Shown: positions 8,940 to 26,668, counted from the first letter of the stretch. The stretch: 32,000 nt of DNA from Candidatus Iainarchaeum sp. (GCA_016205145.1 JACQJH010000002.1:390001-422000); one strand, 5' to 3'. Notes: a model not told the origin generated them from the letters alone. A program made the numbers and translations.

Positions 8940-9007
8940 CCAAACTGCCTTATTCTTTTTTGAATATTTTAGCACAAAAAATATTAATAAATATCTTCGC
9001 CCTTCAC

Positions 9008-9021: not shown

Positions 9022-9036
9022 TTCCGAAGTGGGCTT

Positions 9037-9936: not shown

Positions 9937-9954
9937 AAACGCGGGCAAAAAAAA

Positions 9955-10278: not shown

Positions 10279-10336
10279 ACTTACCTGTTTAATAATATTT
10301 TGAAATTCAGGATATTAGCATAAAGGAGGGAACAAG

Positions 10337-10585
10337 ATGCAAACAATACAGCTTCCGGTTTCTGAAAGCATAAAAAAAGAGCTCGAAAAAATTCCGGCGT
10401 GGAAAGCGATGCTTTACCTGCAGGAAAACGGCGAAACGTCAGCGTACCAGCTGGCAAAAGCCCTCGGCTGGACAACCGGCAAGGCGCATGCCACCATAAA
10501 AAAGCTGGAAAAGTCAAAAGCCGTAAAAAGCAGGAAAACCACAGTCAACGGCAGGGCCGTGAAGCTTGTCAGGCTGGCAAACTAA
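10337..10585 (+). CDS. Small winged-helix DNA-binding protein
   Basis: AAGGAGGG lies 6 nt upstream of the ATG. AMLYLQENGETSAYQLAKALGWTTGKAHATIKKLEKSKAVKSRKTTVNGRAVKLVRL is a typical wHTH with a wing. Confidence 0.6.
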   Translation: MQTIQLPVSESIKKELEKIPAWKAMLYLQENGETSAYQLAKALGWTTGKAHATIKKLEKSKAVKSRKTTVNGRAVKLVRLAN

Positions 10586-11265: not shown

Positions 11266-11300
11266 GCAAAAACCAGCCAGACAACATTTAAAAAAACAAA

Positions 11301-11939: not shown

Positions 11940-12035
11940 CCGGCTCCGCCAAAGCCACCAAACTTTCCCGTCCGAAGCTGCAAAAACAGGAAAATCCAGC
12001 AAAAAAATGCCCACAAATGCCAAATCAACATTTAT

Positions 12036-12066
12036 TAATATTGAATACAATATTGTTTACAATATG
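12036..12066 (+). promoter_or_regulatory. Three phased CAATAT(T)G half-palindromes (putative RHH operator/promoter)
   Basis: taatattg at 12036-12043, caatattg at 12048-12055 (a perfect palindrome) and caatatg at 12060-12066 are spaced 12 nt apart. They overlap an AT-rich TATA-like stretch and the ATG of the RHH gene at 12064. Confidence 0.4.
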
Positions 12067-12273
12067 AAACAGTATGCTTTTACCGTTGATGAAAACCTCA
12101 TCCGCCTGGTCGACGAAATCGTCAAGGAAACCGGTTTGTACCATTCGCGCAACGATTTTGTCAGGGATGCGTTGCGCAGCAAGGTTTTGGAATTCAGGCG
12201 CGCCCTGTCGGAAAACGAGCTTGAAAAAGAAGGGCAGACCGCCGGCGAGTTTTTCGGAAAAGGCGTGCACTAG
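12064..12273 (+). CDS. CopG/RHH-family DNA-binding protein (orphan antitoxin-like)
   Basis: MKQYAFTVDENLIRLVDEIVKETGLYHSRNDFVRDALRSKV. It carries the same G-L-Y-x-S-R-(S/N)-(E/D)-F signature as the RHH ORF at 22062. Confidence 0.65.
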   Translation: MKQYAFTVDENLIRLVDEIVKETGLYHSRNDFVRDALRSKVLEFRRALSENELEKEGQTAGEFFGKGVH

Positions 12274-12332
12274 CCTCCAACAAGACCCATTTAAATTTTT
12301 TACTTATTCTACTTATTTAAGGTGATTTGCCG

Positions 12333-12533
12333 ATGGTGAACATGACTCTGGCCGTGCCGCAAGAACTCCACGAAATAATGAAAAAGCACGCGGAAATCAG
12401 GTGGAGCGAAGTGGCAAGGCAGGCAATCGCAAAAAAAGCCTCAGAAATCGAAAAAAGCGAGCCCTGGAGAAAATACGCGCTGAAACACTCATTGGAGGAC
12501 TGGGATGCCGCCGATGAACTTTTCGAACTTTGA
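12333..12533 (+). CDS. Ribbon-helix-helix antitoxin (partner of PemK/MazF-like toxin)
   Basis: AAGGTGA lies 7 nt upstream of the ATG at 12333. [36 protein letters not shown] is paralogous to the ORF at 8472, and the two share an approximately 30-nt near-identical DNA core (gtggagcga.gt.gcaaggcaggcaatcgc). Confidence 0.7.
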   Translation: MVNMTLAVPQELHEIMKKHAEIRWSEVARQAIAKKASEIEKSEPWRKYALKHSLEDWDAADELFEL

Positions 12534-12870
12534 GCAGGGAACAATCATAACCGCGAACATAATCTTTTCAGACATGGCGGGGGTAAAGCTCAGGCCGGCG
12601 CTTGTAATCAGCAGCACAGAATATAACAAAAAATTTGCCGACATCATCGTGCTGAAAATCACTTCCGCAAAAGAAAGGCCCTTTCCGTTCAATGTCGACA
12701 TTGCCGACGGGGACGTTTTCGGCGGAAAACTGAAAAAGGAATGCACGATAATGGCTGACTTTCCGGTTACCCTTGCAAAAGAGCAGGTTTCCGGCATAAT
12801 AGGCAGGCTCTCAGAAAAAAAGCTTGCTGAAACAAAACAAAAAATGAAAACACTTTTTTCTTTGAAGTAA
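12505..12870 (+). CDS. PemK/MazF-family toxin
   Basis: GGAGGA lies 5 nt upstream of the ATG. The gene overlaps the antitoxin by 29 nt. FEQGTIITANIIFSDMAGVKLRPALVISSTEYN...IIVLKITS is the typical PemK N-terminal core. Confidence 0.7.
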   Translation: MPPMNFSNFEQGTIITANIIFSDMAGVKLRPALVISSTEYNKKFADIIVLKITSAKERPFPFNVDIADGDVFGGKLKKECTIMADFPVTLAKEQVSGIIGRLSEKKLAETKQKMKTLFSLK

Positions 12871-12885
12871 TGAAAAAAAATAAAT

Positions 12886-12913
12886 TCAACCGCCGGGTTG
12901 ATTTTTTTTCAAC
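12886..12913 (+). terminator. Hairpin plus T8 element, copy 1
   Basis: tcaacc-gccg-ggttga-tttttttt-tcaac lies 16 nt after the toxin stop. The same architecture recurs at 13995-14023. Confidence 0.5.
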
Positions 12914-13056
12914 ATAACCTATTTAAGTTTCGGCAAAAGCATTGCGTACGGCTCCTAGATTCACTAGAGCCTGCTCGGTGCGTTTCCGCCTGGCCAAAAG
13001 CCCGGAAGCGCACCGTTTTCTTTCAAACAGTCATTTTTGGGGTTGGATGTGTGGCA

Positions 13057-13323
13057 ATGAGCATAGCCGAACTGGCTTACCTGAAACTCTTTGACGAAAA
13101 AGTCAACGGCAACACGCCGCACTACCTTAAAGTCTTCCACGCCTCGAAAAGGCAGCGCTATTTCACGCACGACGAGCTTTCAGCGCTTTTCGGCAAAAGC
13201 AAGCCGCAGACAAAAAGAATCCTTGCCGGCATGCAGAAAGCCAACGCAATCAAAAAGGAAGGCTGCCTGTACAAGGCACTGCACATCACGGAGATTGCCG
13301 CGGCGGAAAAGGGCTTAATATGA
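13057..13323 (+). CDS. Hypothetical small HTH protein
   Basis: ATG at 13057 (MSIAELAYLKLF). FTHDELSALFGKSKPQTKRILAGMQKANAIKKEG is HTH-like. The stop overlaps the next ORF through an ATGA junction. Confidence 0.45.
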   Translation: MSIAELAYLKLFDEKVNGNTPHYLKVFHASKRQRYFTHDELSALFGKSKPQTKRILAGMQKANAIKKEGCLYKALHITEIAAAEKGLI

Positions 13324-13625
13324 ACGGCATGAAAAAGTATGTATTAATTCATACTGGTGGTTTGTTGTTCGAAAGCATTTCAACCATGGGCCAGAGAGGC
13401 CAGATAACCATTCCAAAAACAATCAGGCGGATAAAGGGCCTGAAGGCAAACGACAGGGTCATAGTCAAGATTGAAGGCGGCAAAATCGTCGTGGAAAAGG
13501 AGTTAAGCAAAAAGCGCAAGGAAACGCTGATGAAAGAATATTATATAAAATACGCTGATTTGCACAGGAAAACCAACAAGGAATGGGAAGCCGCAGACAT
13601 TGAGGCCAACAGGTTTTTGAAATGA
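13320..13625 (+). CDS. mazE: AbrB/SpoVT/MazE-type antitoxin
   Basis: GQRGQITIPKTIRRIKGLKANDRVIVKIEGGKIVVEK is the swapped-hairpin AbrB motif. The start is either 13320 (ATGA coupling to the upstream gene) or the ATG at 13386 (MGQRGQ). Confidence 0.75.
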   Translation: MNGMKKYVLIHTGGLLFESISTMGQRGQITIPKTIRRIKGLKANDRVIVKIEGGKIVVEKELSKKRKETLMKEYYIKYADLHRKTNKEWEAADIEANRFLK

Positions 13626-13972
13626 ATCTGAAGCGCGGAGACATAGTATTGGCAAACCTCGAGCCGTCATTCGGCTCTGAACAAGGCAGGATTAGGCCCT
13701 GCATAATAATCCAAAACGACATTGCAAACGCGTATAGCCCGACCACGATTATTATCCCGATGACATCCGCCCTTTCCGACAAGGAATATCCGACAGAAGC
13801 CAAAATACTGCCGGGAGATTCCGGATTAAAAGAAACAAGCATGGCGTTGTGCAACCAAATAAGAACAATATCCGTTGAAGACCGGATACTCAAAAAGCTT
13901 GGCTCTCTGAAGACAGCGGCAATGCTGAAAGTCAACGAAGCCCTCAAAACCAGCCTCGGCCTTGAAGAATAA
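13622..13972 (+). CDS. mazF: MazF-family endoribonuclease toxin
   Basis: MNLKRGDIVLANLEPSFGSEQGRIRPCIIIQND...TIIIPMTS...CNQIRTIS matches MazF/PemK. It has an ATGA overlap with the antitoxin. Confidence 0.85.
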   Translation: MNLKRGDIVLANLEPSFGSEQGRIRPCIIIQNDIANAYSPTTIIIPMTSALSDKEYPTEAKILPGDSGLKETSMALCNQIRTISVEDRILKKLGSLKTAAMLKVNEALKTSLGLEE

Positions 13973-14041: not shown

Positions 14042-14668
14042 GTGAAAGGGTTATGTACGAGGGGTTGGCAATTGTTTGCCGAAAAGCAGGCTCAAAGGAT
14101 AACGGCTGTTTCAGCCTTCGCACTGTTGCTTGTGCTCGCGGTTGCCGTAAGCGCGCAGACCAGCACAGGCCTTGCCCAAGCCAACATTCAGCCTGCCAAT
14201 GCACCACAAGACTATTCTGAGGCAATCGCAAAAGTTTCCCCCGAACTCATGCAGCAGGCAGCGGAAAAGGCACCGGAAGCGTTCGCAAACATTCAAATGC
14301 CGCAAAACGCCACAGGTTTCCCGGAACAACCAGCCGCGGGCCAGACGCAGGAAAACGCAATTTCCATGCCTGAAAACCCAAATGGCATGCCGCAGGCAGT
14401 CAAGGCAATCTTTACGGCAAAAGACGGCGAAGACCTGCAGGCCATTGCACAAAAAATCAGGGAACTTGGCGGCACGGTCAAACAGGAATTCAAAATAGGC
14501 AATTCCCTTGTCGCTGAAATCCCCGCCGACAGGCTGTTAGAGGCAGCGTCGCAGGAAGAGGTTTCGTCCGTCTGGGACGACTTCAGCTATTTTGGTGCTC
14601 ATGTCAACCAAAAAATGGTCAACTTCCGCCACCGAACCAAACTCCAAAACAGCCGGCAAATCGCTTAA
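14042..14668 (+). CDS. Secreted protein with a subtilase-propeptide (inhibitor I9)-like domain; possibly the 5' remnant of a subtilase gene
   Basis: GTG start. Signal peptide RITAVSAFALLLVLAVAVSAQT, then a P/Q/A-rich linker. AIFTAKDGEDLQAIAQKIRELGGTVKQEFKIGNSLVAEIPADRLLEAASQEEVSSVWDD resembles a subtilisin pro-domain. No catalytic domain follows, and the last approximately 130 nt are antisense to the next gene. Confidence 0.5.
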   Translation: MKGLCTRGWQLFAEKQAQRITAVSAFALLLVLAVAVSAQTSTGLAQANIQPANAPQDYSEAIAKVSPELMQQAAEKAPEAFANIQMPQNATGFPEQPAAGQTQENAISMPENPNGMPQAVKAIFTAKDGEDLQAIAQKIRELGGTVKQEFKIGNSLVAEIPADRLLEAASQEEVSSVWDDFSYFGAHVNQKMVNFRHRTKLQNSRQIA

Positions 14669-14962
14669 AATATTCCCGGATTTTTCCCGCTTTATTGACC
14701 TTGAAAACGCTTCCAAAGAATCCAGCCATTCCAACGAAACCGAATACTTCTTGTCAGAAACAAGCAAAACCCTGTCCTTGACCATGCCAGACAAAGCCTT
14801 ATGGACGGCCCGATACGAAACAGCCAAAGAATGCTCCCGCTTCAACTTGGCAAAAACCTCCTTAGCCGACAAAGCCGAACCAGCCCCCAAAACCCGCAAA
14901 ACTGCAAAACAGACGTCGGATTTGGAACCGATGAAAGAAAAAACCATGCGAGATTTATACAT
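14537..14962 (-). CDS. wHTH regulator, apparently a C-terminally truncated paralogue of the 21093-21938 gene
   Basis: SAKEVFAKLKREHSLAVSYRAVHKALSGMVKDRVLLVSDKKYSVSLEWL aligns by eye with TAKQIHARVSRNSGKSVSYQAVHKTVAQMLSEGVLAKNGKNYSISESYI of the 281-aa paralogue. Similarity continues to ...NLFL versus ...TIFL, then the ORF stops at 141 aa. It is divergent from the AT-rich operon. Confidence 0.55.
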   Translation of the reverse strand: MYKSRMVFSFIGSKSDVCFAVLRVLGAGSALSAKEVFAKLKREHSLAVSYRAVHKALSGMVKDRVLLVSDKKYSVSLEWLDSLEAFSRSIKREKSGNILSDLPAVLEFGSVAEVDHFLVDMSTKIAEVVPDGRNLFLRRCL

Positions 14963-15017: not shown

Positions 15018-15057
15018 GAAAATTATAAAAACTTGTTAACGCTTTAGTTGTAACAAG
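15018..15057 (+). promoter_or_regulatory. Putative TATA box plus inverted repeat upstream of the AT-rich operon
   Basis: aaaattataaaaa at 15018-15030 is followed by cttgtta (15032-15038) and taacaag (15051-15057), perfect 7-nt inverted arms separated by 12 nt. AAGGTG follows at 15055-15060, and the GTG start is at 15068. Confidence 0.35.
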
Positions 15058-15067
15058 GTGCTATTCT

Positions 15068-15508
15068 GTGAACGGGGAATTTTACGATATATTGCTAGTG
15101 GATTTTAGCGGCATTTTCCCGTTTAAACTGGAAAAAGAGGATGTCCTCACAAGGCAAGAACAACTTTCACAACATAATCTAGAGACATTTTTGTTAGAAT
15201 TAGAGAAGAATCTCGGGGAAGAACTTACATACATTGGCTCGGATCTATTAGAAACAAAAATGTTCCATAGGGCATTACTAAAAGATGGGCTACTAGAGCT
15301 ATTAATTGGCACGCCCATAACCCTACTAGCACACTACAAAGAAGAAAAAAAGGCCAAAAAATTCAAAGAATCGCTCGAAAGGACATTGGAAAAAACAATA
15401 CCCGAGCATTTGGCGCCGCTGATTCAAGATTCAATTGAAATTAAAAAAATAAAAAGAGTTCTAGGGCCACCCCCACAAGGTTTTAGAAAACTCGGGAAGG
15501 TTGAATAA
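15068..15508 (+). CDS. Hypothetical protein (first gene of the AT-rich operon)
   Basis: 146-aa ORF with a GTG start after AAGGTG. Composition is E/K/L-rich and helical-looking. The stop lies 2 nt before the next ATG. No family recognised. Confidence 0.55.
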   Translation: MNGEFYDILLVDFSGIFPFKLEKEDVLTRQEQLSQHNLETFLLELEKNLGEELTYIGSDLLETKMFHRALLKDGLLELLIGTPITLLAHYKEEKKAKKFKESLERTLEKTIPEHLAPLIQDSIEIKKIKRVLGPPPQGFRKLGKVE

Positions 15509-15510
15509 TT

Positions 15511-16878
15511 ATGGTTGAAGGAATTATAACAAAATGGTCAAAATTGCAAAAATTAAAAGAAAAAGGTAAAACGAGTAGAATTACTGTTGGCATCGGTTTA
15601 TCAGAAACAAAAAATAGCGTAACAGCCACAAAAGAAGCGGCTCAAAAAGCATTAAAACAATTAAATGGCAAAAAACCAACCATTTCCTATGTTTATTATT
15701 CAGGCGAGTATGACCCGAATGAGATTAACAAAGGTTTAATTGAGGAATTAGGCGGAACCGATTATGTCGGGGGTTCCACAGACAGAGTATTATATAACGA
15801 TAGAATAATAGACAACGGGATTCTAATAGTTTCGTTACAATCCGATTTCTTGCATGTTAGCATTGCTTCAGCAGAGAATATCTCCAAAGACCCTTATGGC
15901 ATAGCAAAAAAAACGATAAAGGAAGCCGTTAGCAAACTTACCTTGGACCAATATATTGACCCATATTTACAGGTTTCAAGGATGAAACAAGGAAATGTCG
16001 AGTGGTTGCTAAAAATCCCATCATATTTTGTAATTGTTTATAGCAGAGGCCTCAAATTACCTGTAATGGGTGATGAAACAAAAATAGTTAACGCTGTTTT
16101 CAATGTGCTGGGTCCAAATGTCCCATTATTTGGCGGTAGCTATGGCGCGCCAATAGAAAAGTTGTTTGGCGGGCAGCCATACGAAATCAACATATTCCAC
16201 AATGGAAAAGTGCTGAAAGATGGCCTAGTTGTAATAATAAATGCAGGGAATATTCTCTATGGGCAAGCGCTCGAGCATGGCGCAGTCAGAACTGACAAAA
16301 TAGGATTTGTTTCCAAAACGAGCAATGAAGGCTATATAGTTAACGAAATATCCGGAAGAAACGTTATAGATTGGTATGCAGAAGAAATCGGCATTTCAAG
16401 AGAAGAATTTGAAAAAAGCAGTCAAACAATAACCCAGAGATGGCCGCTGGGCACCCCCGACGGATATGGAAACTACATTATCCGCGGTGCAGGGGTATAT
16501 AGTAAACAAAATGGGAAAGACAGCCTTGGCTATGTCGCACCACTAATCGAAGGGTGGCCCGTGTACATAATGGACGCCAAACAAGAAAACCTAATGAAAG
16601 CCTCAGACGCCATTTCCACAAAAATACAAGAGTTCACAAGCGAAACAACAAAACCAGCAGTTATTTTCGCAAATTTGTGCGCATCACGAAGAGCAATATT
16701 CAAGGAAAAATTAGTAGAAGAACAGAAAAAATTAATAAAAAAATTTGGCGGCGCGCCATTAGTGGGATTCTCATGTTATGGCGAAATAGGTTCAGCCCCA
16801 GGAAAACCAGCAGGATTCCAACACATGTCAGCGAACATATTTGTGATGTATGATAAACTCTTAAACGAACTGAAATAG
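15511..16878 (+). CDS. FIST-domain protein (FIST_N plus FIST_C-like), stand-alone
   Basis: 455 aa. N-terminal part: ITVGIGLSETKNSVTATKEAAQKALKQLNGKKPTISYVYYSG...GGTDYVGGSTD. C-terminal part: PAVIFANLCASRRAIFKEKLVEEQKKLIKKFGGAPLVGFSCYGEIGSAPG...HMSANIFVMY, matching the FIST_C pattern (C..R ... GF..yGEi ... hn.t). Confidence 0.7.
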   Translation: MVEGIITKWSKLQKLKEKGKTSRITVGIGLSETKNSVTATKEAAQKALKQLNGKKPTISYVYYSGEYDPNEINKGLIEELGGTDYVGGSTDRVLYNDRIIDNGILIVSLQSDFLHVSIASAENISKDPYGIAKKTIKEAVSKLTLDQYIDPYLQVSRMKQGNVEWLLKIPSYFVIVYSRGLKLPVMGDETKIVNAVFNVLGPNVPLFGGSYGAPIEKLFGGQPYEINIFHNGKVLKDGLVVIINAGNILYGQALEHGAVRTDKIGFVSKTSNEGYIVNEISGRNVIDWYAEEIGISREEFEKSSQTITQRWPLGTPDGYGNYIIRGAGVYSKQNGKDSLGYVAPLIEGWPVYIMDAKQENLMKASDAISTKIQEFTSETTKPAVIFANLCASRRAIFKEKLVEEQKKLIKKFGGAPLVGFSCYGEIGSAPGKPAGFQHMSANIFVMYDKLLNELK

Positions 16879-16886
16879 GACACCGT

Positions 16887-18086
16887 ATGAAAAATTTATT
16901 AACCATAGAAGAGGAATTTAAGACATTTATAGAGAATTGCAATTCTGGGGAATATAAGAATATTTTAGATGTCCCCCCTCACATTTGGGGGTTACATGGA
17001 TGGGAGCAAACCCCAAAAAAGAAAATTGAAGAGATACTATTGCCATTTATAAATCAAAACATAGAACGTGCAAAAAAGTTTATGCCAATCTACAAAAACG
17101 CTTATGCGGGCACAAACCCTAAAAAAATAGAAACAATTGAAGATTTTTGGCAAATTCCAGCATTAATAAAGGACAGCGGCAATTACGGCATAGGATTTAG
17201 GGAAAAAGTCAGAAAAAATCCGTATGTAATGCTGCCAACAGACATAAAAGAACCCACATATGTATTCCGTTCTGGAGGAACTAAAGGAGTTGCCACACCT
17301 ACAATGGTAACTAAATTCGATATCGAAGTTGAGAGTCATGGATTTGCTCGCGGCTATCGATATGAAGGAATGAAACCCGGAGATATCGCAATGAGCACAT
17401 ATAATCCAACACACAAGGGTGGAGAATGCATAAAAGAAAGTTTCATTAAAAACGGAATGACATATATACCACGAAGAACCACAGACCCGCCAAAAGAAGT
17501 AATAGACATAATCGAGGCATATAAAATTAATGTCCTCTTAACCGTGCAGGGGCCGGTCGAGAGAGGGGACAATGAGCAAAAAGGTGGTGCTGGCGGGCTA
17601 GATTTATTTAGCTTGATAGAAGCCAATAGCGACATAATTGAAAAAAATATAGACATTATTTTTTTGGGCGGGTATAGATTGATAGATGAAGCTATAACTT
17701 GGGCAGAAAATGCAAATAAGCCGTTAGTCACACTATTAGGATCATCTGAAGCAATACCTCAAGCAACAAGTACTGGACTTGGACCTAAAGACAGGCTTTG
17801 CAAATTTAATAACCTTCATGTTTTGCACGGGCCCCACTATATCGAAGTATTAAAAGAAGAGTCTGGAACATTAGTGCCAGTAAAAAAGGGAGAAACCGGT
17901 CTTTTGGCTTATACTACTGTGGCAAGACAAGGAACGTTGTATATACGATATTTTCCTGGCGATGCGGCCACATTATTAGCCAAAGAGAAGGAATGCAATT
18001 GTGGCATAAAAAGCGAAATAATTACGGATGTAAATAGAATAGATCACCCGGAAGATGTAGTAAGCACGGGTTGTTGCATCGGGTGA
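16887..18086 (+). CDS. Adenylate-forming enzyme of the PaaK / coenzyme F390 synthetase / LuxE-like clade
   Basis: 399 aa. IETIEDFWQIPALIKD; degenerate P-loop VFRSGGTKGVATPTM (compare SSGTTGKPT); STYNPTHKGGECIKESFIKNGMTYIP; LLGSSEA; LHVLHGPHYIEVLKEESGTLVPVKKGETGLLAYTTVARQGTLYIRYFPGD...CNCG. The C-terminus is ...VVSTGCCIG. Confidence 0.75.
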   Translation: MKNLLTIEEEFKTFIENCNSGEYKNILDVPPHIWGLHGWEQTPKKKIEEILLPFINQNIERAKKFMPIYKNAYAGTNPKKIETIEDFWQIPALIKDSGNYGIGFREKVRKNPYVMLPTDIKEPTYVFRSGGTKGVATPTMVTKFDIEVESHGFARGYRYEGMKPGDIAMSTYNPTHKGGECIKESFIKNGMTYIPRRTTDPPKEVIDIIEAYKINVLLTVQGPVERGDNEQKGGAGGLDLFSLIEANSDIIEKNIDIIFLGGYRLIDEAITWAENANKPLVTLLGSSEAIPQATSTGLGPKDRLCKFNNLHVLHGPHYIEVLKEESGTLVPVKKGETGLLAYTTVARQGTLYIRYFPGDAATLLAKEKECNCGIKSEIITDVNRIDHPEDVVSTGCCIG

Positions 18087-18090
18087 CAAA

Positions 18091-19680
18091 ATGGAAAATA
18101 AATTTGATAATATTATAGGCGGAAAGCAACTCACGTTAAGTGGCAAATATTTTACTGCCGTAAGCCCATTTTATGAGGATTTCCAATACTCAATAGCCGA
18201 TTCTAATTTTGCAGATATTAGTGTTGCGATATCAAAAGCAAAACTTGCGGTAGAAGAATGTGAAAAGTTAAAGTTTGAAGATCGGCAGGAAATATTGACG
18301 AAAGCTGCAAAAACAATAAAATTTTCAGATAAAGAAAAAAAGTCTGTTGTAAAAATGACTGGCATGCCAATAAAATATATTTCTAAATACCTTGAAGAAA
18401 TACCACAACTTTTAGAAAACCTGCCAACCATTGGGGTAAATCGATATGGAGTAATAAACGGAATAATCGCAAGAGACCTATATGAAAAAGAAACGTTTCA
18501 CAAAATTGAATTTCGCCACCCAGTTAATGGATTTGTATATGCAATAACTCCATCAAATGACCCGAGAACAACGACGTTGGTTTCAACAATTTTAACTATT
18601 TTAGGCATCCCCGGCATCATAAAACCAAGTAAATTTGATTGCGTGCCTGCAACAAAGGTTATTACTGCAATTATCAATGCCGGTTATCCACAAAACGCTT
18701 TAAATGTAATTTATTTTGATTCAGAAAATAAATTATCAAACACGCATAATTTCAAGTTATGCGATGCTGCTAAGGTAATTTGGCCATTTGGGGACGATAA
18801 AACTGTAGATCAGTTGCTCAGATTGGAACATAGAAAAATGCTTAATCTACAAAAAATTATGACTAACGAGAATAATATAAATCAAAAATTAGTGAAAAAA
18901 GTTCTAGACATGTTGAATAAATCAACTGATGACGCCCAAGAATATATAGAAGACCAGACAATAGATCACTTCGCATCAAAAATAGTATTAAGACACGCCT
19001 CTGGGCGGTGTGCCGGAATTGTGGATAGCGACTTTGAACCTAAAAAGGCAGTAGATTTAATACTAGAGTCCTCAATGACATACCCTATTGGTTGCAATTC
19101 GATGAAAGCGCTTTTTGTAACAGAAAAAGCATTCCTGCCCATCATAGAATTATTAAAAAGCAAATTTGCAGAATTGGAAAATAAAACCGGCGACCCGTTG
19201 GATGAAAAAACTGAAATTGGTTTGATAAACAAAGGTACGATAGATTATATGTCAAAGAGAATTAATGAATTGACATTATCTGGGCTTACTCAAACTATCG
19301 CAGGTGGCAAAAAATTAAGTGACACCCAAGTGACTCCTCGTTTAGTAACAACTAAAGACATACATTCAGAATTATTAATCAACGAAATACCAGCATACAT
19401 TTTAGCAATAAAAAAATCCGAAACATTTGAGGATGCCGTCCGGGAAGCAAATATCGCGGCGAAAGAAAGTAACAAACTAGCCATTAGCATTTTCACTAAC
19501 AACCACGAGCACATGAAAGCAAAGCTTAAGGCACACCATCTGAAAATTAACCACCCTACAACAGACGTAGATGGGATAATTCACGAAGGGAATGATTATA
19601 TAATGCAATTAACGAAACCTCATGTAGTACACATCCAAAAAAGCGAGCTAAAGAAACACCCATATAGACCCGCGGTATAA
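18091..19680 (+). CDS. Highly divergent aldehyde-dehydrogenase-superfamily protein (possibly LuxC/acyl-reductase-like)
   Basis: 529 aa. GFVYAITPSNDPRTT (Asn of WNFP), GIIKPSKFD (KPSE Lys), PQNALNVIYF, VLRHASGRCAGIVDSD (aligns with LELGGK..IV.DAD), YPIGCNSMKALFV (catalytic Cys region), and NEIPAYILAIKKSETFEDAVREAN...LAISIFTNN (EEIFGPV...AN...GL.A.VFT.D). There is an N/K/Q-rich insertion around aa 250-290. Confidence 0.7.
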   Translation: MENKFDNIIGGKQLTLSGKYFTAVSPFYEDFQYSIADSNFADISVAISKAKLAVEECEKLKFEDRQEILTKAAKTIKFSDKEKKSVVKMTGMPIKYISKYLEEIPQLLENLPTIGVNRYGVINGIIARDLYEKETFHKIEFRHPVNGFVYAITPSNDPRTTTLVSTILTILGIPGIIKPSKFDCVPATKVITAIINAGYPQNALNVIYFDSENKLSNTHNFKLCDAAKVIWPFGDDKTVDQLLRLEHRKMLNLQKIMTNENNINQKLVKKVLDMLNKSTDDAQEYIEDQTIDHFASKIVLRHASGRCAGIVDSDFEPKKAVDLILESSMTYPIGCNSMKALFVTEKAFLPIIELLKSKFAELENKTGDPLDEKTEIGLINKGTIDYMSKRINELTLSGLTQTIAGGKKLSDTQVTPRLVTTKDIHSELLINEIPAYILAIKKSETFEDAVREANIAAKESNKLAISIFTNNHEHMKAKLKAHHLKINHPTTDVDGIIHEGNDYIMQLTKPHVVHIQKSELKKHPYRPAV

Positions 19681-19681
19681 T

Positions 19682-20155
19682 ATGCACAAGAAAGCAGAAG
19701 AATTGTTATTTGCAGATCTCCTAAGTTTCGGAGAAGATGGCAAGATAAATCTATTCAACACTGCCGCATTTTTGTTGCCAAGCGATTTTGTTTTAAAATT
19801 AGAGGAAAAACTATCAACAGATGAAATTTACAGCCTATCTAAAAAAATCCCCGAACCGATAATTAAAATATTGATAGAAAGACAGATGAAAGATTTAGAA
19901 CGGCTCGATTTTATGTTGGAACTGGCAGAAGTACTTGGGATGGGGCAAATACAAATACCAGATTTTGATCAGAAAAAAAGCAAACACGAAGTAGTAATAA
20001 AAAATTCCACTACCAATAACGTATCCTGCCACCGCACAAGAGGATATTTGGCAACTATTTTTTCTGACTCACTCAAGAAAAAATTCGAATGCCAAGAAAT
20101 CAAATGTGCTTCAAAAGGGAACGAATACTGCCAATTTGTTTTGACTAGCGAGTAA
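19682..20155 (+). CDS. V4R-domain protein (stand-alone, predicted small-molecule binding)
   Basis: 157 aa. The C-terminal signature VSCHRTRGYLATIFSDSLKKKFECQEIKCASKGNEYCQFVLTSE matches the V4R Cys pattern (C..rG...g....... ec.E..C...G...C.F.l). The ATG lies 1 nt after the upstream stop. Confidence 0.75.
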   Translation: MHKKAEELLFADLLSFGEDGKINLFNTAAFLLPSDFVLKLEEKLSTDEIYSLSKKIPEPIIKILIERQMKDLERLDFMLELAEVLGMGQIQIPDFDQKKSKHEVVIKNSTTNNVSCHRTRGYLATIFSDSLKKKFECQEIKCASKGNEYCQFVLTSE

Positions 20156-20957
20156 TTCCAGAGATTTTTTCCCCGCTGAAAACATTCTCATCTTTAACTT
20201 CCAAACCAGTCGGCGTTAATTCCATCAATAGGCTATCTAAATTGTGGTTTGTTTGCCTCATTTTTCTGATCTTAAGGCTTCTTACGCTTTTTCTTGCTAT
20301 CTCTTGAATATTAACAATAATCACGCCATCAGTAATAAATTCGCTTATCCCATCCGCAGATAATCTGCCTCCTTCTTCCGGCAATTCGGATGTCAGCAAG
20401 GCTGTTTTCCCGTATTTTTTGAGTTCCTGAATTAAACGGAAGAGAATGCTTTTCGCTATGACTTGTTCCGTGCGCGGTATGGGTGAAACACTTTCAGCCA
20501 CCTGCACCAATGAGAATGCCGAGTCTTCCGTCAGGCCGGAAATCAGCAAAGCATCAGTCAGGGTTGTCATGGAGTCCACGACAATGCGTTTTGGCTGGAA
20601 TTCTGCGACCATTTCGTCGACTTTTTTGATGAAATTGTCTCCGCCGGTTATGTCAAAGTATTTGATTTTGAACAAATGCCTTGTTTCCAGTTCATCCAAG
20701 TCCCAGCCGAAGCCTTCGGCCTGCCGGTGCAATTCTTCAACTGTCTGTTCAGTGGAAATGTACAATCCTTTTTCTCCGAAAAGCTTGGCGCCGTTAATCA
20801 AAAACTGGAGGCAAAGCGTTGATTTTCCCGTTCCCGCGCCGCCTGAAATAAGCACGAGGTTGCCGGCCGGGATGCCGCCGTGCAATGCCTTGTCCAAACC
20901 CTGAATGCCGGTTTTGACCTTGTTCTCCAAATTACTAGCCTTAGCCTTGCTCTCCAC
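20145..20957 (-). CDS. KaiC/RecA-superfamily single-domain ATPase
   Basis: GIQGLDKALHGGIPAGNLVLISGGAGTGKSTLCLQF (Walker A) and PKRIVVDSMTTL (Walker B). GTG start at 20957. The 3' end overlaps the V4R gene by 11 nt in convergent orientation. Confidence 0.85.
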   Translation of the reverse strand: MESKAKASNLENKVKTGIQGLDKALHGGIPAGNLVLISGGAGTGKSTLCLQFLINGAKLFGEKGLYISTEQTVEELHRQAEGFGWDLDELETRHLFKIKYFDITGGDNFIKKVDEMVAEFQPKRIVVDSMTTLTDALLISGLTEDSAFSLVQVAESVSPIPRTEQVIAKSILFRLIQELKKYGKTALLTSELPEEGGRLSADGISEFITDGVIIVNIQEIARKSVRSLKIRKMRQTNHNLDSLLMELTPTGLEVKDENVFSGEKISGITR

Positions 20958-21092: not shown

Positions 21093-21938
21093 TCAAACTT
21101 TCCTGAAAAACTTCGCCTGCTTGCCGAGGTAGGCTTCCCTTATCTGGTCCGCCAAAGCCGGATCTTTTGCGACTATGGCAGTTATAGGCGCGGGATAGTC
21201 GCGCATTTTTGCCAAGTGTTCGCCAAGGTCAAAGCTTTCAAGGTCTTTTGGTATGCGGTTCTGTTCAAACCATGCCTGCCTAAAGGTCGGCTCGAACCAG
21301 ACGTGGCAGACGAAGTCGCCTGCAACAAAAACGTCCTGCAATGCGGAAGCCGGATTGCCGACGAAGTGCACTTCGTTTATACCGAGCTTTTTGAGCGCAT
21401 CCGCAAACATTTTGTCCAAAAAGTTTTTTTCGGCGCAGAAGCAATAGGTCGGGGTTTTTCGAAAATGTTCGGTCAGTTCCTTGTAGTCCTCGTCTTTTAT
21501 TCCCACAATCGAGTAAACCGGAGCGGTCAGGAAAATCGTGGGCTTGTTTTCCGGGTTCGGAACCTGCATCAGGCCGCCGATGAGAAAGCGGGCCAGTTCG
21601 AGTATGCCGTGGAAGTGGAAGACTGTCGCATCCTTTTTGAGCATTGCGGAAAAGTCCTGTTCCGGCTGGCCGGAATACTTTGATTCGAGGGCGTGCGCGG
21701 ACTGCTTGAGTTTTTTGATGTAGGATTCGCTTATCGAATAGTTTTTCCCGTTTTTTGCGAGCACTCCTTCGGAAAGCATTTGCGCAACGGTTTTGTGCAC
21801 TGCCTGGTAGGAAACGCTTTTGCCTGAATTGCGCGAAACGCGCGCATGGATTTGTTTTGCGGTCAGCGGCCATTCCTCGCCCAGAACGCCAAGAATTAGG
21901 TCTTTTGTCGAGTTTTTCGCGGAAAAAGCCTTATCCAA
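21093..21938 (-). CDS. wHTH regulator with an uncharacterised approximately 190-aa C-terminal domain
   Basis: 281 aa with a TTG start. N-terminal wHTH LILGVLGEEWPLTAKQIHARVSRNSGKSVSYQAVHKTVAQMLSEGVLAKNGKNYSIS. The C-terminal domain is unrecognised. Full-length paralogue of the 14537-14962 gene. Confidence 0.65.
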   Translation of the reverse strand: MDKAFSAKNSTKDLILGVLGEEWPLTAKQIHARVSRNSGKSVSYQAVHKTVAQMLSEGVLAKNGKNYSISESYIKKLKQSAHALESKYSGQPEQDFSAMLKKDATVFHFHGILELARFLIGGLMQVPNPENKPTIFLTAPVYSIVGIKDEDYKELTEHFRKTPTYCFCAEKNFLDKMFADALKKLGINEVHFVGNPASALQDVFVAGDFVCHVWFEPTFRQAWFEQNRIPKDLESFDLGEHLAKMRDYPAPITAIVAKDPALADQIREAYLGKQAKFFRKV

Positions 21939-22061: not shown

Positions 22062-22337
22062 ATGAAAATGCTTTCCGTTGCAGTCGACGAGCGGCTTGCC
22101 AAAAGCATTGATTCTGCGATTGCCTCTTCCGGCTTGTATTCTTCGAGGAGCGAGTTTTTGAAGGATGCCATCAGGAAGAACTTGTCTGGGCTGGTTGAAC
22201 AGAGTGAGGACCTGAAGGCAATCCGTGAAGGCGTTGCGCGCCTGAGAAAAAAAGCCGTTTTCCGGCCGATGACTTCAGAAGAACGGGATGCATTGGCAAT
22301 GGAAGTTATAAAAAGTGAGCGGGCGAAACGCACCTGA
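22062..22337 (+). CDS. CopG/RHH-family protein (VapB-like)
   Basis: MKMLSVAVDERLAKSIDSAIASSGLYSSRSEFLKDAIRKNL. A tandem ttattaacc-tg-ttattaacc lies directly upstream (22042-22061) and could be an operator. Confidence 0.7.
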   Translation: MKMLSVAVDERLAKSIDSAIASSGLYSSRSEFLKDAIRKNLSGLVEQSEDLKAIREGVARLRKKAVFRPMTSEERDALAMEVIKSERAKRT

Positions 22338-22725
22338 CAAAGCTTTCGGCCTTTTTGAAATCCTTCAGGTTCCAGGTGACGATTTTATCCGCATTGTTTT
22401 CAACGGCGTATGCCACATGCGCGGAATCCGCCCAGTGCAGGCCGCAGTTCCGCGAAATTTTCAAAACAAGTGCTTCGCTTGGCGCCTTTTTGCAGGTTTC
22501 CAAATTCAGCATGAAGCATTCCAACTCTTCAAAGACCGCCTTTTCCGGCAGGGAGAGCACATGAAAAATTTCATCCAGAAACATTCTCGAAACGAGCATC
22601 GTGGAACCAGCTTTTCTCGCCCAAATAAAGAAATTTTCGCTGTCTGTCCCCAGAAGATTGAAGGATGAATCAATCTCTTCCCTTACAAGCGAAATGAAAA
22701 CATTGGAGTCGAGATACAGGCGCAT
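22306..22725 (-). CDS. vapC: PIN-domain (VapC-like) ribonuclease
   Basis: MRLYLDSNVFISL (first Asp), FLDEIFHVL (Glu), WADSAHVAYA (Asp) and IVTWNLKDF (the T.N..DF C-terminal motif). Confidence 0.75.
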   Translation of the reverse strand: MRLYLDSNVFISLVREEIDSSFNLLGTDSENFFIWARKAGSTMLVSRMFLDEIFHVLSLPEKAVFEELECFMLNLETCKKAPSEALVLKISRNCGLHWADSAHVAYAVENNADKIVTWNLKDFKKAESFVRCVSPAHFL

Positions 22726-22817: not shown

Positions 22818-23402
22818 TTATTCCGGCTCCAGCTGCTGCCTTGTCTTGTCGTTGTCCCAGTTGAATGCGTGTTTTTCCTTGAGCACGAATTTGCATGCCT
22901 GGCCGCCCAAGGCAGAGCATTCGAGTTCGACGCATTCCATGTCCGCGGAGAAGAATTTTGAGAACAGGCCTGCGAGGATTCCGCGAATCAAGTGGTCTGT
23001 TTCGGCTTGTGTTTTGCCTTGCAGGTTTTCAGCGAAGGGACTGTTTGCGACTGTCACTATTGCCTGTTTTTTGTCGAAGTCCAAATCGATGTTTTGCAAT
23101 TGGCCCCAGCCGAAGGCGGTAAAGATTGTTTCAACCAGTTCAAGGCCTTTCTGCCCTTGGAGGCCGAAGTCGATGTTGAATTTTTCCATGAGCTTTTCCT
23201 GTGTCGCCTGTTTTACCGCATAATAGATTTTTTTTGCCTCGTCTTGGCTGGCTTTTGCGGTTATGGAAACGAGTATTTCGGTTGGAACCATCAGGAACTG
23301 CGTGTCAATCAAATAGAAGTTGTTGTTTTTGTATTTGAGGTTGTTCGTAACAACAAATTTGTCCAGAAAAGAGTTGAGCATGAGACCGCCTTTTGCCAGC
23401 AT
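22818..23402 (-). CDS. V4R-domain protein (native-composition paralogue)
   Basis: 194 aa. The C-terminus ETDHLIRGILAGLFSKFFSADMECVELECSALGGQACKFVLKEK is the V4R signature. In-frame ATGs at 23402 and 23381. Confidence 0.75.
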   Translation of the reverse strand: MLAKGGLMLNSFLDKFVVTNNLKYKNNNFYLIDTQFLMVPTEILVSITAKASQDEAKKIYYAVKQATQEKLMEKFNIDFGLQGQKGLELVETIFTAFGWGQLQNIDLDFDKKQAIVTVANSPFAENLQGKTQAETDHLIRGILAGLFSKFFSADMECVELECSALGGQACKFVLKEKHAFNWDNDKTRQQLEPE

Positions 23403-26666: not shown

Positions 26667-26668
26667 GC

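What the first reader, a model, noticed from the sequence alone, without database searches (positions are those of the whole stretch)
15068..20155. AT-rich five-gene operon (unknown / FIST / PaaK-LuxE-like ligase / divergent ALDH-like / V4R): candidate undescribed ligand-sensing acid-activation module
Seen in sequence: five plus-strand ORFs are separated by only 2, 8, 4 and 1 nt (15508/15511, 16878/16887, 18086/18091, 19680/19682). All lie in a block far more AT-rich than its surroundings. By eye they encode a 146-aa unknown protein, a stand-alone FIST protein, a COG1541-type adenylate-forming enzyme with a degenerate P-loop (RSGGTKGVATP), a very divergent aldehyde-dehydrogenase-superfamily protein and a stand-alone V4R protein. 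Established knowledge: FIST and V4R are both predicted small-molecule-binding modules and are usually fused to signalling or transcription outputs (V4R occurs in XylR/DmpR-type regulators and BchJ). Here two such modules are free-standing and bracket two enzymes. I know of no characterised pathway with this four-domain combination. Inference: the operon may be a substrate-presenting or ligand-gated module that activates an acid as an acyl-adenylate and interconverts it with an aldehyde.
Basis: partly seen in the sequence, partly recalled or inferred. Interest (0 to 1): 0.85.

Follow-up and report, generated by a model that had tools for sequence, protein, structure and literature searches.

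The report
LuxCE-like acid reductase module in DPANN
A gene cluster conserved in tiny symbiotic (DPANN) archaea pairs a truncated acid-activating enzyme that ends in a swinging cysteine tail with an aldehyde-dehydrogenase-like reductase, the design luminous bacteria use to make aldehydes, and surrounds the pair with two ligand-binding proteins, an orphan small protein and a KaiC-type ATPase whose roles are unknown.

Summary

The unit is larger than reported. A convergent KaiC-like ATPase (20145-20957) and the 146-aa orphan protein are constant partners. The six-part set recurs in more than 20 DPANN loci, even where gene order is shuffled.

The catalytic core is a new, very small family pair that is built like LuxE/LuxC.
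- **Ligase:** it has only the PaaK-type N-terminal domain. It ends in a disordered tail with an invariant Gly-Cys (76 of 76 members).
- **ALDH-like protein:** it keeps the catalytic Cys, but an invariant His replaces the hydrolytic Glu, as in reductive ALDHs.

The most likely chemistry runs acid, acyl-AMP, acyl-S-tail, acyl-S-reductase, aldehyde. The substrate is unknown; neighbouring genes hint at an amino-acid-derived acid.

FIST is fused to a winged-helix domain in one lineage. That favours a sensor or regulator role over substrate presentation.

Bacteria carry only the enzyme pair. I found no description of this module in the literature I could search. I rate it a new variant of a known kind, of moderate to high interest.

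The parts
14537..14962 (-). Divergent 141-aa protein that looks like a winged-helix regulator (w141). A possible regulator of the module.
   Evidence: ORF. It has host-like composition (GC3 0.54). There is no Pfam hit. It shares 30% identity with the N-terminus of L021:12375-13937, a protein whose residues 124-325 match FIST/NosP. The wHTH assignment is by eye.
15023..15030 (+). TATA-box-like element TTATAAAA, about 40 nt upstream of the first gene. An AAGGTG Shine-Dalgarno sequence lies at 15055-15060.
   Evidence: Read directly from the sequence. Its promoter function is inferred, not tested.
15068..15508 (+). Orphan small alpha/beta protein (146 aa, GTG start). A constant module member, of the same family as 'u158' in other loci.
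   Evidence: The family has 50 members in 5.8 billion proteins and no Pfam hit. hhalign to the u158 family gives probability 98.6%, E 6e-16. The AF2 model has pLDDT 75.8. No convincing structural match: best TM 0.38, no E below 1e-3.
15511..16878 (+). Stand-alone FIST_N + FIST_C protein (455 aa), the predicted ligand sensor.
   Evidence: Pfam FIST 71.5 bits and FIST_C 58.1 bits. It is not NosP (47.8 bits against a cut-off of 450). Identity is 42-55% across DPANN lineages, with about 80 invariant columns. L012 has a wHTH-FIST fusion (HTH_24 27.2 bits). L021 appears to have a second one.
16887..18086 (+). Truncated PaaK-type adenylate-forming enzyme (399 aa), the predicted acyl-protein synthetase.
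   Evidence: The A2 profile matches PaaK 4r1l residues 8-326 of 436 only. Foldseek gives TM 0.65-0.70 to PaaK and also matches the C-domain-less EhpF. The AF2 model has pLDDT 86.6. There is no LuxE or PaaK family membership.
17271..17300 (+). Degenerate phosphate-binding loop SGGTKGVATP (residues 129-138).
   Evidence: G130, G131, G134 and P138 are invariant in 26 sequences. The loop aligns with the PaaK SSGTTGKPT loop.
18036..18083 (+). Hinge Arg384 followed by a 15-residue flexible tail ending TGCCIG. Cys396 is the predicted acyl acceptor.
   Evidence: R384, G395 and C396 are invariant. The GC tail is present in 76 of 76 full-length family members. A Cys lies in the last 9 residues of 40 of 42 distant truncated relatives. 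The tail has pLDDT below 50. The LuxE equivalent is R355...KGC364 (PMC9157457).
18091..19680 (+). Divergent ALDH-fold protein (529 aa), the predicted thioester reductase.
   Evidence: Pfam Aldedh 103.7 bits. The family has only 44 members. The nearest solved relatives are generic ALDHs, P5CDH and GAPN at E 1e-20 to 1e-14.
18994..18996 (+). His302, in the column of the ALDH catalytic-triad (hydrolytic) Glu.
   Evidence: It is invariant in 23 archaeal and 3 bacterial sequences. It aligns with the E of ELGG in 8hap and of AEMGG in 3rjl. ALDH18 reductases use a His at this position (PMC12041015).
19093..19095 (+). Cys335, the catalytic nucleophile, in the motif PIGCNSMK.
   Evidence: It is invariant. 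It aligns with the catalytic Cys of GAPN, 8hap and 3rjl.
19682..20155 (+). Stand-alone V4R protein (157 aa) with a Zn-site-like pattern C116...E139-x2-C142-x7-C150. The predicted small-molecule binder.
   Evidence: Pfam V4R 41.7 bits. The C-terminal E-x2-C-x7-C pattern is conserved across loci, while C116 is absent from four of twelve sequences. The V4R/TRAPPC3 fold forms ligand cavities stabilised by Zn (PMC10933270).
20145..20957 (-). Single-domain KaiC-like RecA-superfamily ATPase (270 aa). It is convergent, and its 3' end overlaps the V4R 3' end by 11 nt.
   Evidence: Pfam KaiC ATPase 199 bits. Walker A G39-T47 and other motifs are conserved. A KaiC gene is present in nearly every archaeal locus long enough to show it; L023 is an exception. 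Composition is host-like (GC3 0.52).
21093..21938 (-). 281-aa protein with a winged-helix-like N-terminus (w281), a recurrent neighbour.
   Evidence: There is no family hit. Paralogues lie in tandem arrays of 3-7 next to the module in L001/L028, L011 and L013.

Best explanation
This is a conserved DPANN-archaeal module. Its catalytic heart is a two-protein carboxylic-acid reductase that works like the LuxE-LuxC fatty-acid reductase, although it is not a member of those families.

Proposed steps (inferred from sequence and structure, not measured):
1. The truncated PaaK-type ligase adenylates a carboxylic acid.
2. It has no C-terminal subdomain and no CoA step. The acyl group moves to Cys396 on the ligase's own flexible C-terminal tail.
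3. The tail swings into the ALDH-fold partner and hands the acyl group to Cys335.
4. NAD(P)H reduces the thioester and an aldehyde is released. His302 in place of the hydrolytic Glu keeps water from cleaving the thioester.

The substrate is unknown. Inserted or adjacent genes suggest an amino-acid-derived acid. These are IlvE, a HisC-like aminotransferase and a Rossmann-fold reductase in archaea, and a threonine-transaldolase-like enzyme in a bacterium.

The four non-enzyme partners are FIST, V4R, the orphan small protein and the KaiC-like ATPase. They are an archaeal add-on and most likely form a ligand-sensing control layer together with neighbouring winged-helix-like proteins. FIST acts as the sensor half of a transcription regulator. 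V4R, the small protein and KaiC form a second sub-block of unknown output.
For: **Shown by tools**

Ligase:
- It equals the PaaK N-terminal domain only (profile hit to 4r1l residues 8-326 of 436; Foldseek TM about 0.7).
- The chain stops 15 residues after the hinge Arg, with an invariant Gly-Cys. The tail is disordered in a confident model.
- The GC tail is in 76 of 76 family members. A terminal Cys is in 40 of 42 distant truncated relatives. One exception is a fragment. In the other, a phosphopantetheine carrier domain follows the tail.
- LuxE has the same design and a proven acyl-Cys364 relay to LuxC Cys296 (PMC9157457; PMC12041015).

ALDH:
- The Cys is invariant, and His sits in the Glu column.
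- The review states that loss of this Glu enables reductive or reversible reactions, and that ALDH18 uses His there.

The pair is adjacent in archaea and in three bacterial loci.

Aldehyde-consuming or amino-acid context:
- A fluorothreonine-transaldolase-like gene in the L017 operon. This is the best NCBIfam match at 296 bits, below the cut-off of 650.
- IlvE inserted between the ligase and the ALDH in L020/L021.
- A HisC-like gene after the ALDH in L006.

Regulatory layer:
- A wHTH-FIST fusion in L012, and probably a second one in L021.
- V4R, the small protein and KaiC form a separate divergent sub-operon in L006 and L013.

An ALDH-annotated enzyme that reduces a protein-tethered thioester has a further precedent in TabE (bioRxiv 10.1101/2025.08.11.669332).
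Against: - No biochemical data exist for any member of these families.
- The ligase and the ALDH do not reach the LuxE or LuxC Pfam models. LuxE and LuxC are not among the PDB sequence hits listed. The parallel may therefore be convergent.
- Replacing Glu prevents hydrolysis in either direction. CoA-acylating ALDHs oxidise aldehydes, so the residue pattern alone does not fix the direction.
- Support for direction comes from one bacterial locus and from analogy.
- The aminotransferases may be chance neighbours. HisG lies near the HisC-like gene in L006.
- FIST is as conserved as the enzymes (about 42-55% identity) and is translationally coupled to them. That would also fit a structural subunit.
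- The KaiC partners are much more divergent than the enzymes (28-61% identity).
- I could not read the key paper on archaeal KaiC neighbourhoods.
Confidence: 0.55

Rival explanations
1. The machinery is the same but runs in reverse, as an energy-conserving aldehyde oxidation. The ALDH-like protein oxidises an aldehyde to an acyl-Cys335 thioester. The acyl group passes to the ligase tail Cys. The ligase then runs backwards to make ATP from AMP and PPi and releases the acid. This would be substrate-level phosphorylation for an energy-poor symbiont.
For: Replacing Glu with His blocks thioester hydrolysis, which is equally needed for oxidative, non-hydrolytic ALDHs (PMC12041015). IlvE and HisC-like aminotransferases in the operons fit amino-acid catabolism through oxo-acids and aldehydes. 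From my own knowledge, AMP-forming acyl-CoA synthetases can run in reverse when PPi is available, and DPANN have few known ATP-yielding reactions.
Against: The characterised truncated-ligase and ALDH-fold pair (LuxE/LuxC) runs reductively. From memory, EhpF with the ALDH-family EhpG does too. The Parachlamydiales locus is biosynthetic in character, with transaldolase-like, ATP-grasp and methyltransferase genes. No aldehyde-generating decarboxylase is found in the module.
Confidence: 0.17
2. FIST, V4R and the small protein are stoichiometric subunits of a multi-protein enzyme complex. They bind and present the substrate, or sequester the reactive aldehyde product. KaiC acts as an assembly or remodelling ATPase, and none of them acts as a regulator.
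For: All six parts are co-conserved despite shuffled gene order. The genes are separated by 1-8 nt. FIST is as conserved as the enzymes. V4R/TRAPPC3 cavities hold hydrophobic ligands such as palmitate or phenols (PMC10933270). LuxC sequesters its aldehyde product (PMC12041015).
Against: Bacterial relatives have the enzyme pair alone. FIST is fused to a DNA-binding winged helix in L012, and apparently in a paralogue in L021. In L034 a FIST orthologue is detached from the enzymes. V4R, the small protein and KaiC can form a separate, oppositely oriented operon.
Confidence: 0.15
3. The pair does not make a free aldehyde. The Cys-tailed ligase is a general acyl (or sulfur) donor that modifies another protein or carrier. 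For example, it might acylate the V4R protein or form a thiocarboxylate. The ALDH-like protein would have a non-redox role.
For: A distant relative continues from the Cys tail into a phosphopantetheine carrier domain, so tails can feed carriers. TRAPPC3 was crystallised with bound palmitate. Suf sulfur-mobilisation genes lie next to the module in two lineages.
Against: The catalytic Cys, the NAD(P)-site residues (K178, G234, T238, E432) and the oxyanion Asn are invariant in the archaeal ALDH family. That argues for real redox chemistry. The ALDH partner is the one gene always adjacent to the ligase, including in bacteria. Suf adjacency is seen in only two lineages.
Confidence: 0.06
4. The block is cargo of a mobile island with a defence or addiction function, and is not a metabolic or signalling module.
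For: The composition is foreign (GC3 0.30-0.36 against 0.52-0.61). MazEF and RHH/PIN toxin-antitoxin pairs flank it. The module is AT-richer than its flanks in 15 of 17 archaeal loci.
Against: No module protein matches PADLOC defence models, apart from a weak P-loop hit on KaiC. There are no PHROG hits beyond generic ALDH and RecA-like ATPase families. No integrase or transposase lies beside the module in the window. Both enzymes have intact active sites.
Confidence: 0.04

Closest known systems
LuxE-LuxC fatty-acid reductase of luminous bacteria (PDB 7XC6)
   Same: The ligase is an ANL-type adenylating enzyme that lacks the C-terminal subdomain and carries a short flexible tail. The tail has a conserved Gly-Cys a few residues after the hinge Arg. 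The partner is an ALDH-fold protein with a conserved Cys and without the hydrolytic machinery, and it is encoded next door. The predicted relay runs acyl-AMP, tail Cys, reductase Cys, aldehyde.
   Different: There is no detectable sequence membership: no PF04443 or PF05893 hit for the window proteins, and LuxE/LuxC are absent from the PDB profile hits listed. The ALDH partner is closer to classical ALDHs and retains the Asn and NAD-site residues, with His in place of Glu. No luxAB or luxD is nearby. The host is a DPANN archaeon. Four extra non-enzyme partners are present. A fatty-acid substrate is not indicated.
PaaK phenylacetate-CoA ligase family (COG1541; PDB 2Y27, 4R1L)
   Same: It is the best sequence and structure match for the ligase N-terminal domain. 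The P-loop, YGxxxGG-like, GSSE and RY.PGD motifs are alignable.
   Different: The whole C-terminal subdomain, with its catalytic Lys and CoA-thioesterification function, is missing. Scores are far below the equivalog cut-offs (37-50 bits against 646-700). The residue aligned with the PaaK LFTGG Phe is an invariant His-Lys pair. I could not check my recollection that this Phe lines the aryl pocket.
EhpF / EhpG of phenazine (griseoluteic acid) biosynthesis
   Same: EhpF is a solved ANL enzyme without a C-terminal domain, and Foldseek matches it (3hgu, 3l2k). ehpG beside it is annotated as an aldehyde dehydrogenase family protein (PMC11278526).
   Different: The structural match is weaker than to PaaK (TM 0.55-0.57). 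The context is a bacterial secondary-metabolite cluster. That this pair forms an aldehyde is my recollection and was not verified here.
Gamma-glutamyl-phosphate reductase (ProA, ALDH18) and other reductive ALDHs; TabE acyl-ACP reductase
   Same: These are ALDH-fold enzymes that reduce an activated acyl group through a Cys thioester. ALDH18 uses a His in place of the triad Glu. TabE reduces a protein-tethered thioester, and a transaminase follows it. The region from H302 to C335 gives local hits to ProA and P5CS.
   Different: Overall similarity is low (26 bits against 317 for proA). The acyl donor here is predicted to be a protein Cys tail, not an acyl phosphate or an ACP.
Archaeal KaiC-like ATPase signalling hubs; one-component FIST and V4R sensors (NosP, XylR/MopR/PoxR, MsvR)
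   Same: The module has a single-domain KaiC-family ATPase with an intact Walker A. It has FIST and V4R ligand-binding folds, and V4R carries a Zn-site-like Cys/Glu pattern. It also has wHTH-FIST fusions.
   Different: FIST and V4R are stand-alone here and are tied to an enzyme pair. All scores are far below the NosP, MsvR and circadian KaiC cut-offs. No kinase, response-regulator or clock partners (KaiA/KaiB) are present.

Membership tests
LuxE acyl-protein synthetase (Pfam PF04443) | ANL-superfamily N-terminal domain fold | tested here: met
   Profile hit to PaaK N-domain. Foldseek TM 0.65-0.70 with a pLDDT 86.6 model.
LuxE acyl-protein synthetase (Pfam PF04443) | Lacks the ANL C-terminal subdomain | tested here: met
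   The chain ends 15 residues after hinge R384. The match covers PaaK residues 8-326 of 436 only. LuxE property taken from PMC9157457.
LuxE acyl-protein synthetase (Pfam PF04443) | Short flexible C-terminal tail with a conserved acyl-accepting Cys (LuxE KGC364) | tested here: met
   TGC396 is invariant and present in 76 of 76 family members. Tail pLDDT is below 50. Acylation itself is not testable here.
LuxE acyl-protein synthetase (Pfam PF04443) | Sequence match to the family model or to solved LuxE | tested here: not met
   No PF04443 hit at E up to 0.1. No LuxE chain among the PDB profile hits at E up to 1. Ten distant relatives were also not recognised as LuxE.
LuxE acyl-protein synthetase (Pfam PF04443) | lux operon context (luxAB luciferase, luxD thioesterase) and a fatty-acid substrate | tested here: not met
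   No such genes in any of the roughly 30 loci examined. The substrate was not tested.
PaaK phenylacetate-CoA ligase (TIGR02155 / NF041878) | Score above the equivalog cut-off | tested here: not met
   37 and 50 bits against cut-offs of 646 and 700.
PaaK phenylacetate-CoA ligase (TIGR02155 / NF041878) | C-terminal subdomain with the catalytic Lys (PaaK1 K422) for adenylation and CoA thioesterification | tested here: not met
   The domain is absent.
Aldehyde dehydrogenase superfamily (Pfam PF00171) | Family model above the gathering score | tested here: met
   103.7 bits against 23.
Aldehyde dehydrogenase superfamily (Pfam PF00171) | Catalytic Cys and oxyanion Asn | tested here: met
   C335 and N156 are invariant in the 23 archaeal sequences. 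C335 aligns with the catalytic Cys. The Asn is lost in two of three bacterial partners.
Aldehyde dehydrogenase superfamily (Pfam PF00171) | Catalytic-triad Glu that activates water (hydrolytic, irreversible ALDHs) | tested here: not met
   An invariant His302 occupies that column. The protein is therefore not a classical hydrolytic ALDH.
LuxC acyl-CoA/acyl-protein reductase (Pfam PF05893) | Sequence match to the family model or to solved LuxC | tested here: not met
   No PF05893 hit for the window protein. A few homologues carry precomputed PF05893 hits. LuxC is not among the best 60 PDB profile hits.
FIST sensor domain (PF08495 + PF10442) | Both domains above the gathering score | tested here: met
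   71.5 and 58.1 bits.
NosP NO-sensing FIST protein (NF041558) | Equivalog cut-off | tested here: not met
   47.8 bits against 450. Haem binding was not tested.
V4R domain (PF02830) | Family model above the gathering score, plus the Cys/Glu Zn-site pattern | tested here: met
   41.7 bits against 31. C116/E139/C142/C150 are read from the sequence, and the C-terminal E-x2-C-x7-C is conserved in the alignment. Metal binding is not testable here.
KaiC-family RecA-like ATPase (PF06745) | Family model above the gathering score, with Walker A | tested here: met
   199 bits. GGAGTGKS is conserved. It is not circadian KaiC: a single domain, 140 bits against 408.

The most novel reading that the evidence does not exclude
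The module is a self-contained small-molecule signalling system of DPANN archaea. The LuxCE-like pair would spend ATP and NAD(P)H to make an amino-acid-derived aldehyde (or a product formed from it) as a signal. FIST and V4R would be its receptors. The KaiC-like ATPase, the orphan small protein and the winged-helix-like proteins would transduce it. That would make it an archaeal counterpart of an autoinducer synthase and receptor cassette, possibly used in symbiont-host or symbiont-symbiont communication, and spread laterally among DPANN lineages.
Probability: 0.12. Interest if true: 0.85.

Novelty: new variant of a known kind. Interest (0 to 1): 0.62.

Why it matters
DPANN archaea have tiny genomes and few recognisable pathways. 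A six-gene set kept together across Diapherotrites/Iainarchaeota, Micrarchaeota, Norongarragalinales and Altiarchaeales MAGs is therefore likely to matter to their biology.

The core shows that the 'swinging cysteine tail' acid reductase design is not confined to luminous bacteria, where it is best known. It defines a broader, unnamed clade of truncated PaaK-like ligases: 40 of 42 distant relatives keep the terminal Cys.

These enzymes reduce acids to aldehydes without CoA or a carrier protein. That is useful for biocatalysis.

The constant pairing with FIST, V4R and a KaiC-like ATPase gives a concrete, testable system. For all three protein types, ligands and outputs in archaea are largely unknown.

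Tried and rejected
- **Genome scan with the ligase as a single sequence:** no confirmed loci. Repeating it with the ALDH alignment worked.
- **Rfam and tRNA scans of the window:** nothing found.
- **Fold of the 146-aa protein:** the AF2 model is moderate (pLDDT 75.8). Foldseek gives only weak AdoMetDC-like hits (TM 0.38 at most, E 4e-3 at best). The protein also lacks the Glu-Ser self-cleavage site that I recall for AdoMetDC, so I left the fold unassigned.
- **X320, the membrane protein inserted between ligase and ALDH in many loci but absent from the window:** it has an invariant DxxDxxxD motif that looks like UbiA. There is no Pfam, NCBIfam or PDB profile hit, so it is unassigned.
- **SDR526:** only an N-terminal Rossmann match could be reproduced. 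The precomputed PF27054 label could not.
- **w281 family:** no hits.
- **Defence-system and viral libraries:** negative.
- **P0043, an apparent KaiC-ALDH fusion:** it is a chimeric or decayed ORF on a 2.3-kb contig, so I rejected it as evidence.
- **Makarova et al. 2017 on KaiC neighbourhoods (PMC5717392):** not held. I cannot exclude that a KaiC-V4R or KaiC-FIST link is mentioned there.
- **L034, FIST next to the aspartokinase, Asd and carboxynorspermidine genes:** I considered this a substrate clue (aspartate semialdehyde or polyamines). It is a single locus, so it remains only a lead.

Full report
**1. The observation**

The five plus-strand ORFs are at the stated coordinates, with gaps of 2, 8, 4 and 1 nt. 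The block has GC 0.373 against 0.509 for the rest of the window. GC3 is 0.30-0.36, while the genes on either side have 0.52-0.61.

Profile searches confirm the domain content:
- FIST_N and FIST_C.
- An Aldedh-family protein.
- A V4R protein.
- A weak, sub-threshold AMP-binding/PaaK-like protein.
- A 146-aa protein with no match.

A TATA-like TTATAAAA (15023-15030) and an AAGGTG Shine-Dalgarno sequence precede the GTG start. A T6 tract follows the last stop codon. The exact protein sequences are on record from a Candidatus Diapherotrites MAG.

**2. The unit is bigger and is conserved**

The ALDH-like protein has only 44 relatives among 5.8 billion proteins, the ligase has 84 and the small protein has 50.

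Around every ALDH relative I looked up, the same genes appear. The genomes include Micrarchaeota, Iainarchaeum, Norongarragalinales, Altiarchaeales and unclassified archaeal MAGs.

In the window, that ATPase is the convergent gene 20145-20957, and its 3' end overlaps the V4R 3' end.

The 146-aa protein and the 'u158' protein found before V4R in other loci are one family (hhalign probability 98.6%). The archaeal core therefore has six constant parts.

Gene order is permuted in L006, L013 and L016 while membership is kept. This is the strongest kind of genomic evidence for a functional link.

An independent scan baited with FIST found 16 metagenome loci. In 13 of the 14 with enough sequence, the ligase follows FIST, and the ALDH, V4R, small protein and KaiC follow where the contig allows. 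The exception, L034, has FIST alone beside polyamine and aspartate-semialdehyde genes.

Lineage-specific insertions occur inside the operon:
- A polytopic membrane protein (X320).
- A 526-aa Rossmann-fold protein.
- A bona fide IlvE.
- A HisC-like aminotransferase.

**3. The ligase**

An alignment of 26 family members shows the PaaK-type motifs of the N-terminal domain. The chain stops 15 residues after the hinge Arg384 and ends in an invariant Gly395-Cys396.

The family profile matches PaaK only over residues 8-326 of 436. The AF2 model is confident (pLDDT 86.6, pTM 0.88). Its last 13 residues are disordered. It superposes on PaaK-family N-domains, and on EhpF, another ANL enzyme without a C-terminal domain.

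The LuxC-LuxE structure paper describes the same design. LuxE lacks the C-terminal subdomain and has a tail of about 20 residues after Arg355, with the motif TRxxKGCxLS. Cys364 in that tail is acylated and carries the acyl group about 30 Å to Cys296 of LuxC (PMC9157457; PMC12041015).

All 76 full-length family members have the GC tail. An exhaustive profile search of 1.84 billion representatives found only 34 clusters at E up to 1e-30. It also found a second tier of truncated relatives of about 350-420 aa. I retrieved 42 of these, and 40 have a Cys within the last nine residues. One exception is a fragment. In the other, a phosphopantetheine carrier domain follows the GC motif.

None of the ten relatives I scanned is recognised as Pfam LuxE. 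The terminal Cys is therefore the defining, selected feature of a broad unnamed clade.

**4. The ALDH-like protein**

The 23 archaeal sequences keep the following:
- The catalytic Cys (C335).
- The oxyanion Asn (N156).
- Residues I take to line the NAD(P) site (K178, G234, T238, E432).

The column of the catalytic-triad Glu holds an invariant His302. Explicit alignments place this His on the E of ELGG in 8hap and of AEMGG in 3rjl.

The three bacterial partners keep H302, C335 and the C-terminal H-x-GNDY motif.

The 2025 review of the superfamily states that reductive or reversible ALDHs arise by losing the residues that position water. It adds that gamma-glutamyl-phosphate reductases use a His that replaces this Glu. 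The protein is therefore a non-hydrolytic thioester enzyme.

It is closer in sequence to classical ALDHs than to LuxC.

**5. Direction and substrate**

The residue pattern fits both reduction of an acyl thioester and non-hydrolytic oxidation of an aldehyde. I favour reduction for three reasons:
- The known truncated-ligase and ALDH-fold pair runs that way.
- In the Parachlamydiales locus the pair sits in an operon with a threonine-transaldolase-like enzyme, which needs an aldehyde acceptor. An ATP-grasp ligase, a methyltransferase and an MBL-fold protein are in the same operon.
- A recently characterised ALDH-annotated enzyme, TabE, reduces a protein-bound thioester ahead of a transaminase.

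The reverse, ATP-yielding direction remains a live rival.

The substrate is unknown. There are three hints:
- The aminotransferases inserted in the operons.
- The serine and glycine genes around the Omnitrophica copies.
- An invariant His-Lys pair that aligns with the Phe of the PaaK LFTGG motif. I recall that Phe as part of the PaaK aryl pocket, but I did not verify it here.

Together they hint at a polar, amino-acid-derived acid and not a fatty or simple aryl acid. This is inference only.

**6. The non-enzyme partners**

Bacterial relatives have only the enzyme pair. FIST, V4R, the small protein and KaiC are therefore an archaeal addition.

FIST carries an N-terminal winged helix in the Altiarchaeales locus (HTH_24 above threshold). 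A 520-aa ORF after V4R in L021 appears to be a second wHTH-FIST protein. Its N-terminus resembles w141 at 30% identity, and residues 124-325 match FIST/NosP. Short winged-helix-like genes (u94, w141) or arrays of w281 paralogues flank the module. This favours FIST as the ligand-sensing half of a transcription regulator.

V4R has a Cys/Glu pattern that I recall as the Zn site of the MopR/PoxR sensor domains. Its fold is known to make ligand cavities.

V4R, the small protein and KaiC form their own divergent sub-operon in L006 and L013. KaiC has intact ATPase motifs but is far more divergent than the enzymes.

The small protein has no recognisable fold relative.

How these four act is not shown. 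A regulatory layer is my best reading, and an obligate enzyme complex is the main alternative.

**7. Composition and mobility**

The five-gene cassette is AT-richer than its flanks in 15 of 17 archaeal loci, and by about 0.14 in three genomes with GC of 0.5 or more.

In the window, the drop ends exactly at the V4R/KaiC boundary. The region is flanked by toxin-antitoxin pairs.

Repeated lateral transfer of the cassette among DPANN is plausible but untested. Defence-system and viral libraries gave no support for a defence role.

**8. Comparison with what is known, and verdict**

The core works like LuxE-LuxC, but it fails the sequence-membership tests for LuxE, LuxC and PaaK. It is best described as a new variant of the two-component, Cys-relay carboxylic-acid reductase.

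I found no paper that describes this pair or the six-part module. The DPANN genomics papers listed by my search do not mention FIST or V4R. The one paper most likely to touch on KaiC neighbourhoods was not available.

Its interpretation is partly supported and is now more specific. Interest is moderate to high:
- The mechanism is well supported by comparative evidence.
- The module is conserved in a poorly understood group of organisms.
- Its substrate and the roles of four of its six parts are open and directly testable.

Noticed in passing
window 12505-12870, 13320-13625, 13622-13972; 22062-22337, 22306-22725: Toxin-antitoxin genes flank the module. Upstream are a MazF-like gene and a MazE/MazF pair (Pfam). 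Downstream is an overlapping RHH-like and PIN-like ORF pair, identified by eye from the translations.
   Followed up: partly
window 22818-23402 (-): A second stand-alone V4R protein (194 aa, Pfam V4R 43.3 bits) lies 2.7 kb downstream of the module. It shares 24% identity with the V4R of locus L006.
   Followed up: partly
window 21093-21938 (-); L001 484-3893; L028 1571-7463; L013 10220-13677; L011: The 281-aa protein with a winged-helix-like N-terminus has no family match. It occurs as tandem arrays of 3 to 7 diverged paralogues right next to the module in several genomes.
   Followed up: partly
window 15068-20155 versus flanks; L003, L008, L013: The five-gene cassette is AT-richer than its surroundings in 15 of 17 archaeal loci, by up to 0.14. 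In the window the shift stops exactly at the KaiC gene, although KaiC is a conserved partner.
   Followed up: partly
L034 7517-8878 and neighbours 9000-13850: One FIST orthologue sits without the enzymes. It lies beside a carboxynorspermidine synthase-like gene, carboxynorspermidine decarboxylase, aspartate-semialdehyde dehydrogenase and aspartokinase. That is another pathway of acid activation, reduction and aldehyde use.
   Followed up: partly
L001 7040-8017, L003 6976-8004, L008, L009, L011 (absent from the window): A polytopic membrane protein of about 320 aa is inserted between the ligase and the ALDH in many loci. It has invariant EAEHKHSNR and GDIRDTKFD (DxxDxxxD) motifs and no match in Pfam, NCBIfam or PDB.
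   Followed up: partly
P0226, P0221, P0243 (distant ligase relatives): Some distant truncated ligases with the Gly-Cys tail are fused to other domains. Two carry an N-terminal O-methyltransferase-type extension (Pfam-confirmed for P0221). In one, a phosphopantetheine carrier domain follows the tail.
   Followed up: partly
L036 526-1716 (protein P0043): A 396-aa ORF joins an internal ALDH fragment to the C-terminal half of a KaiC. It sits beside a truncated FIST_C and a V4R gene on a 2.3-kb contig. This is a decayed locus or an assembly chimera, not a clean fusion.
   Followed up: yes
L018 2095-2430; L019 2218-3048: The Omnitrophica contigs that carry the bacterial ligase-ALDH pair also encode MamF/MmsF-family (magnetosome-type) proteins. 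They also encode a 1040-aa SHMT-GcvT fusion protein.
   Followed up: no
window 9037-9936; 25971-26777 (-): A methylenetetrahydrofolate reductase gene and a YggS-like PLP-binding protein (Ala_racemase_N) are elsewhere in the window. I saw no evident link to the module.
   Followed up: no
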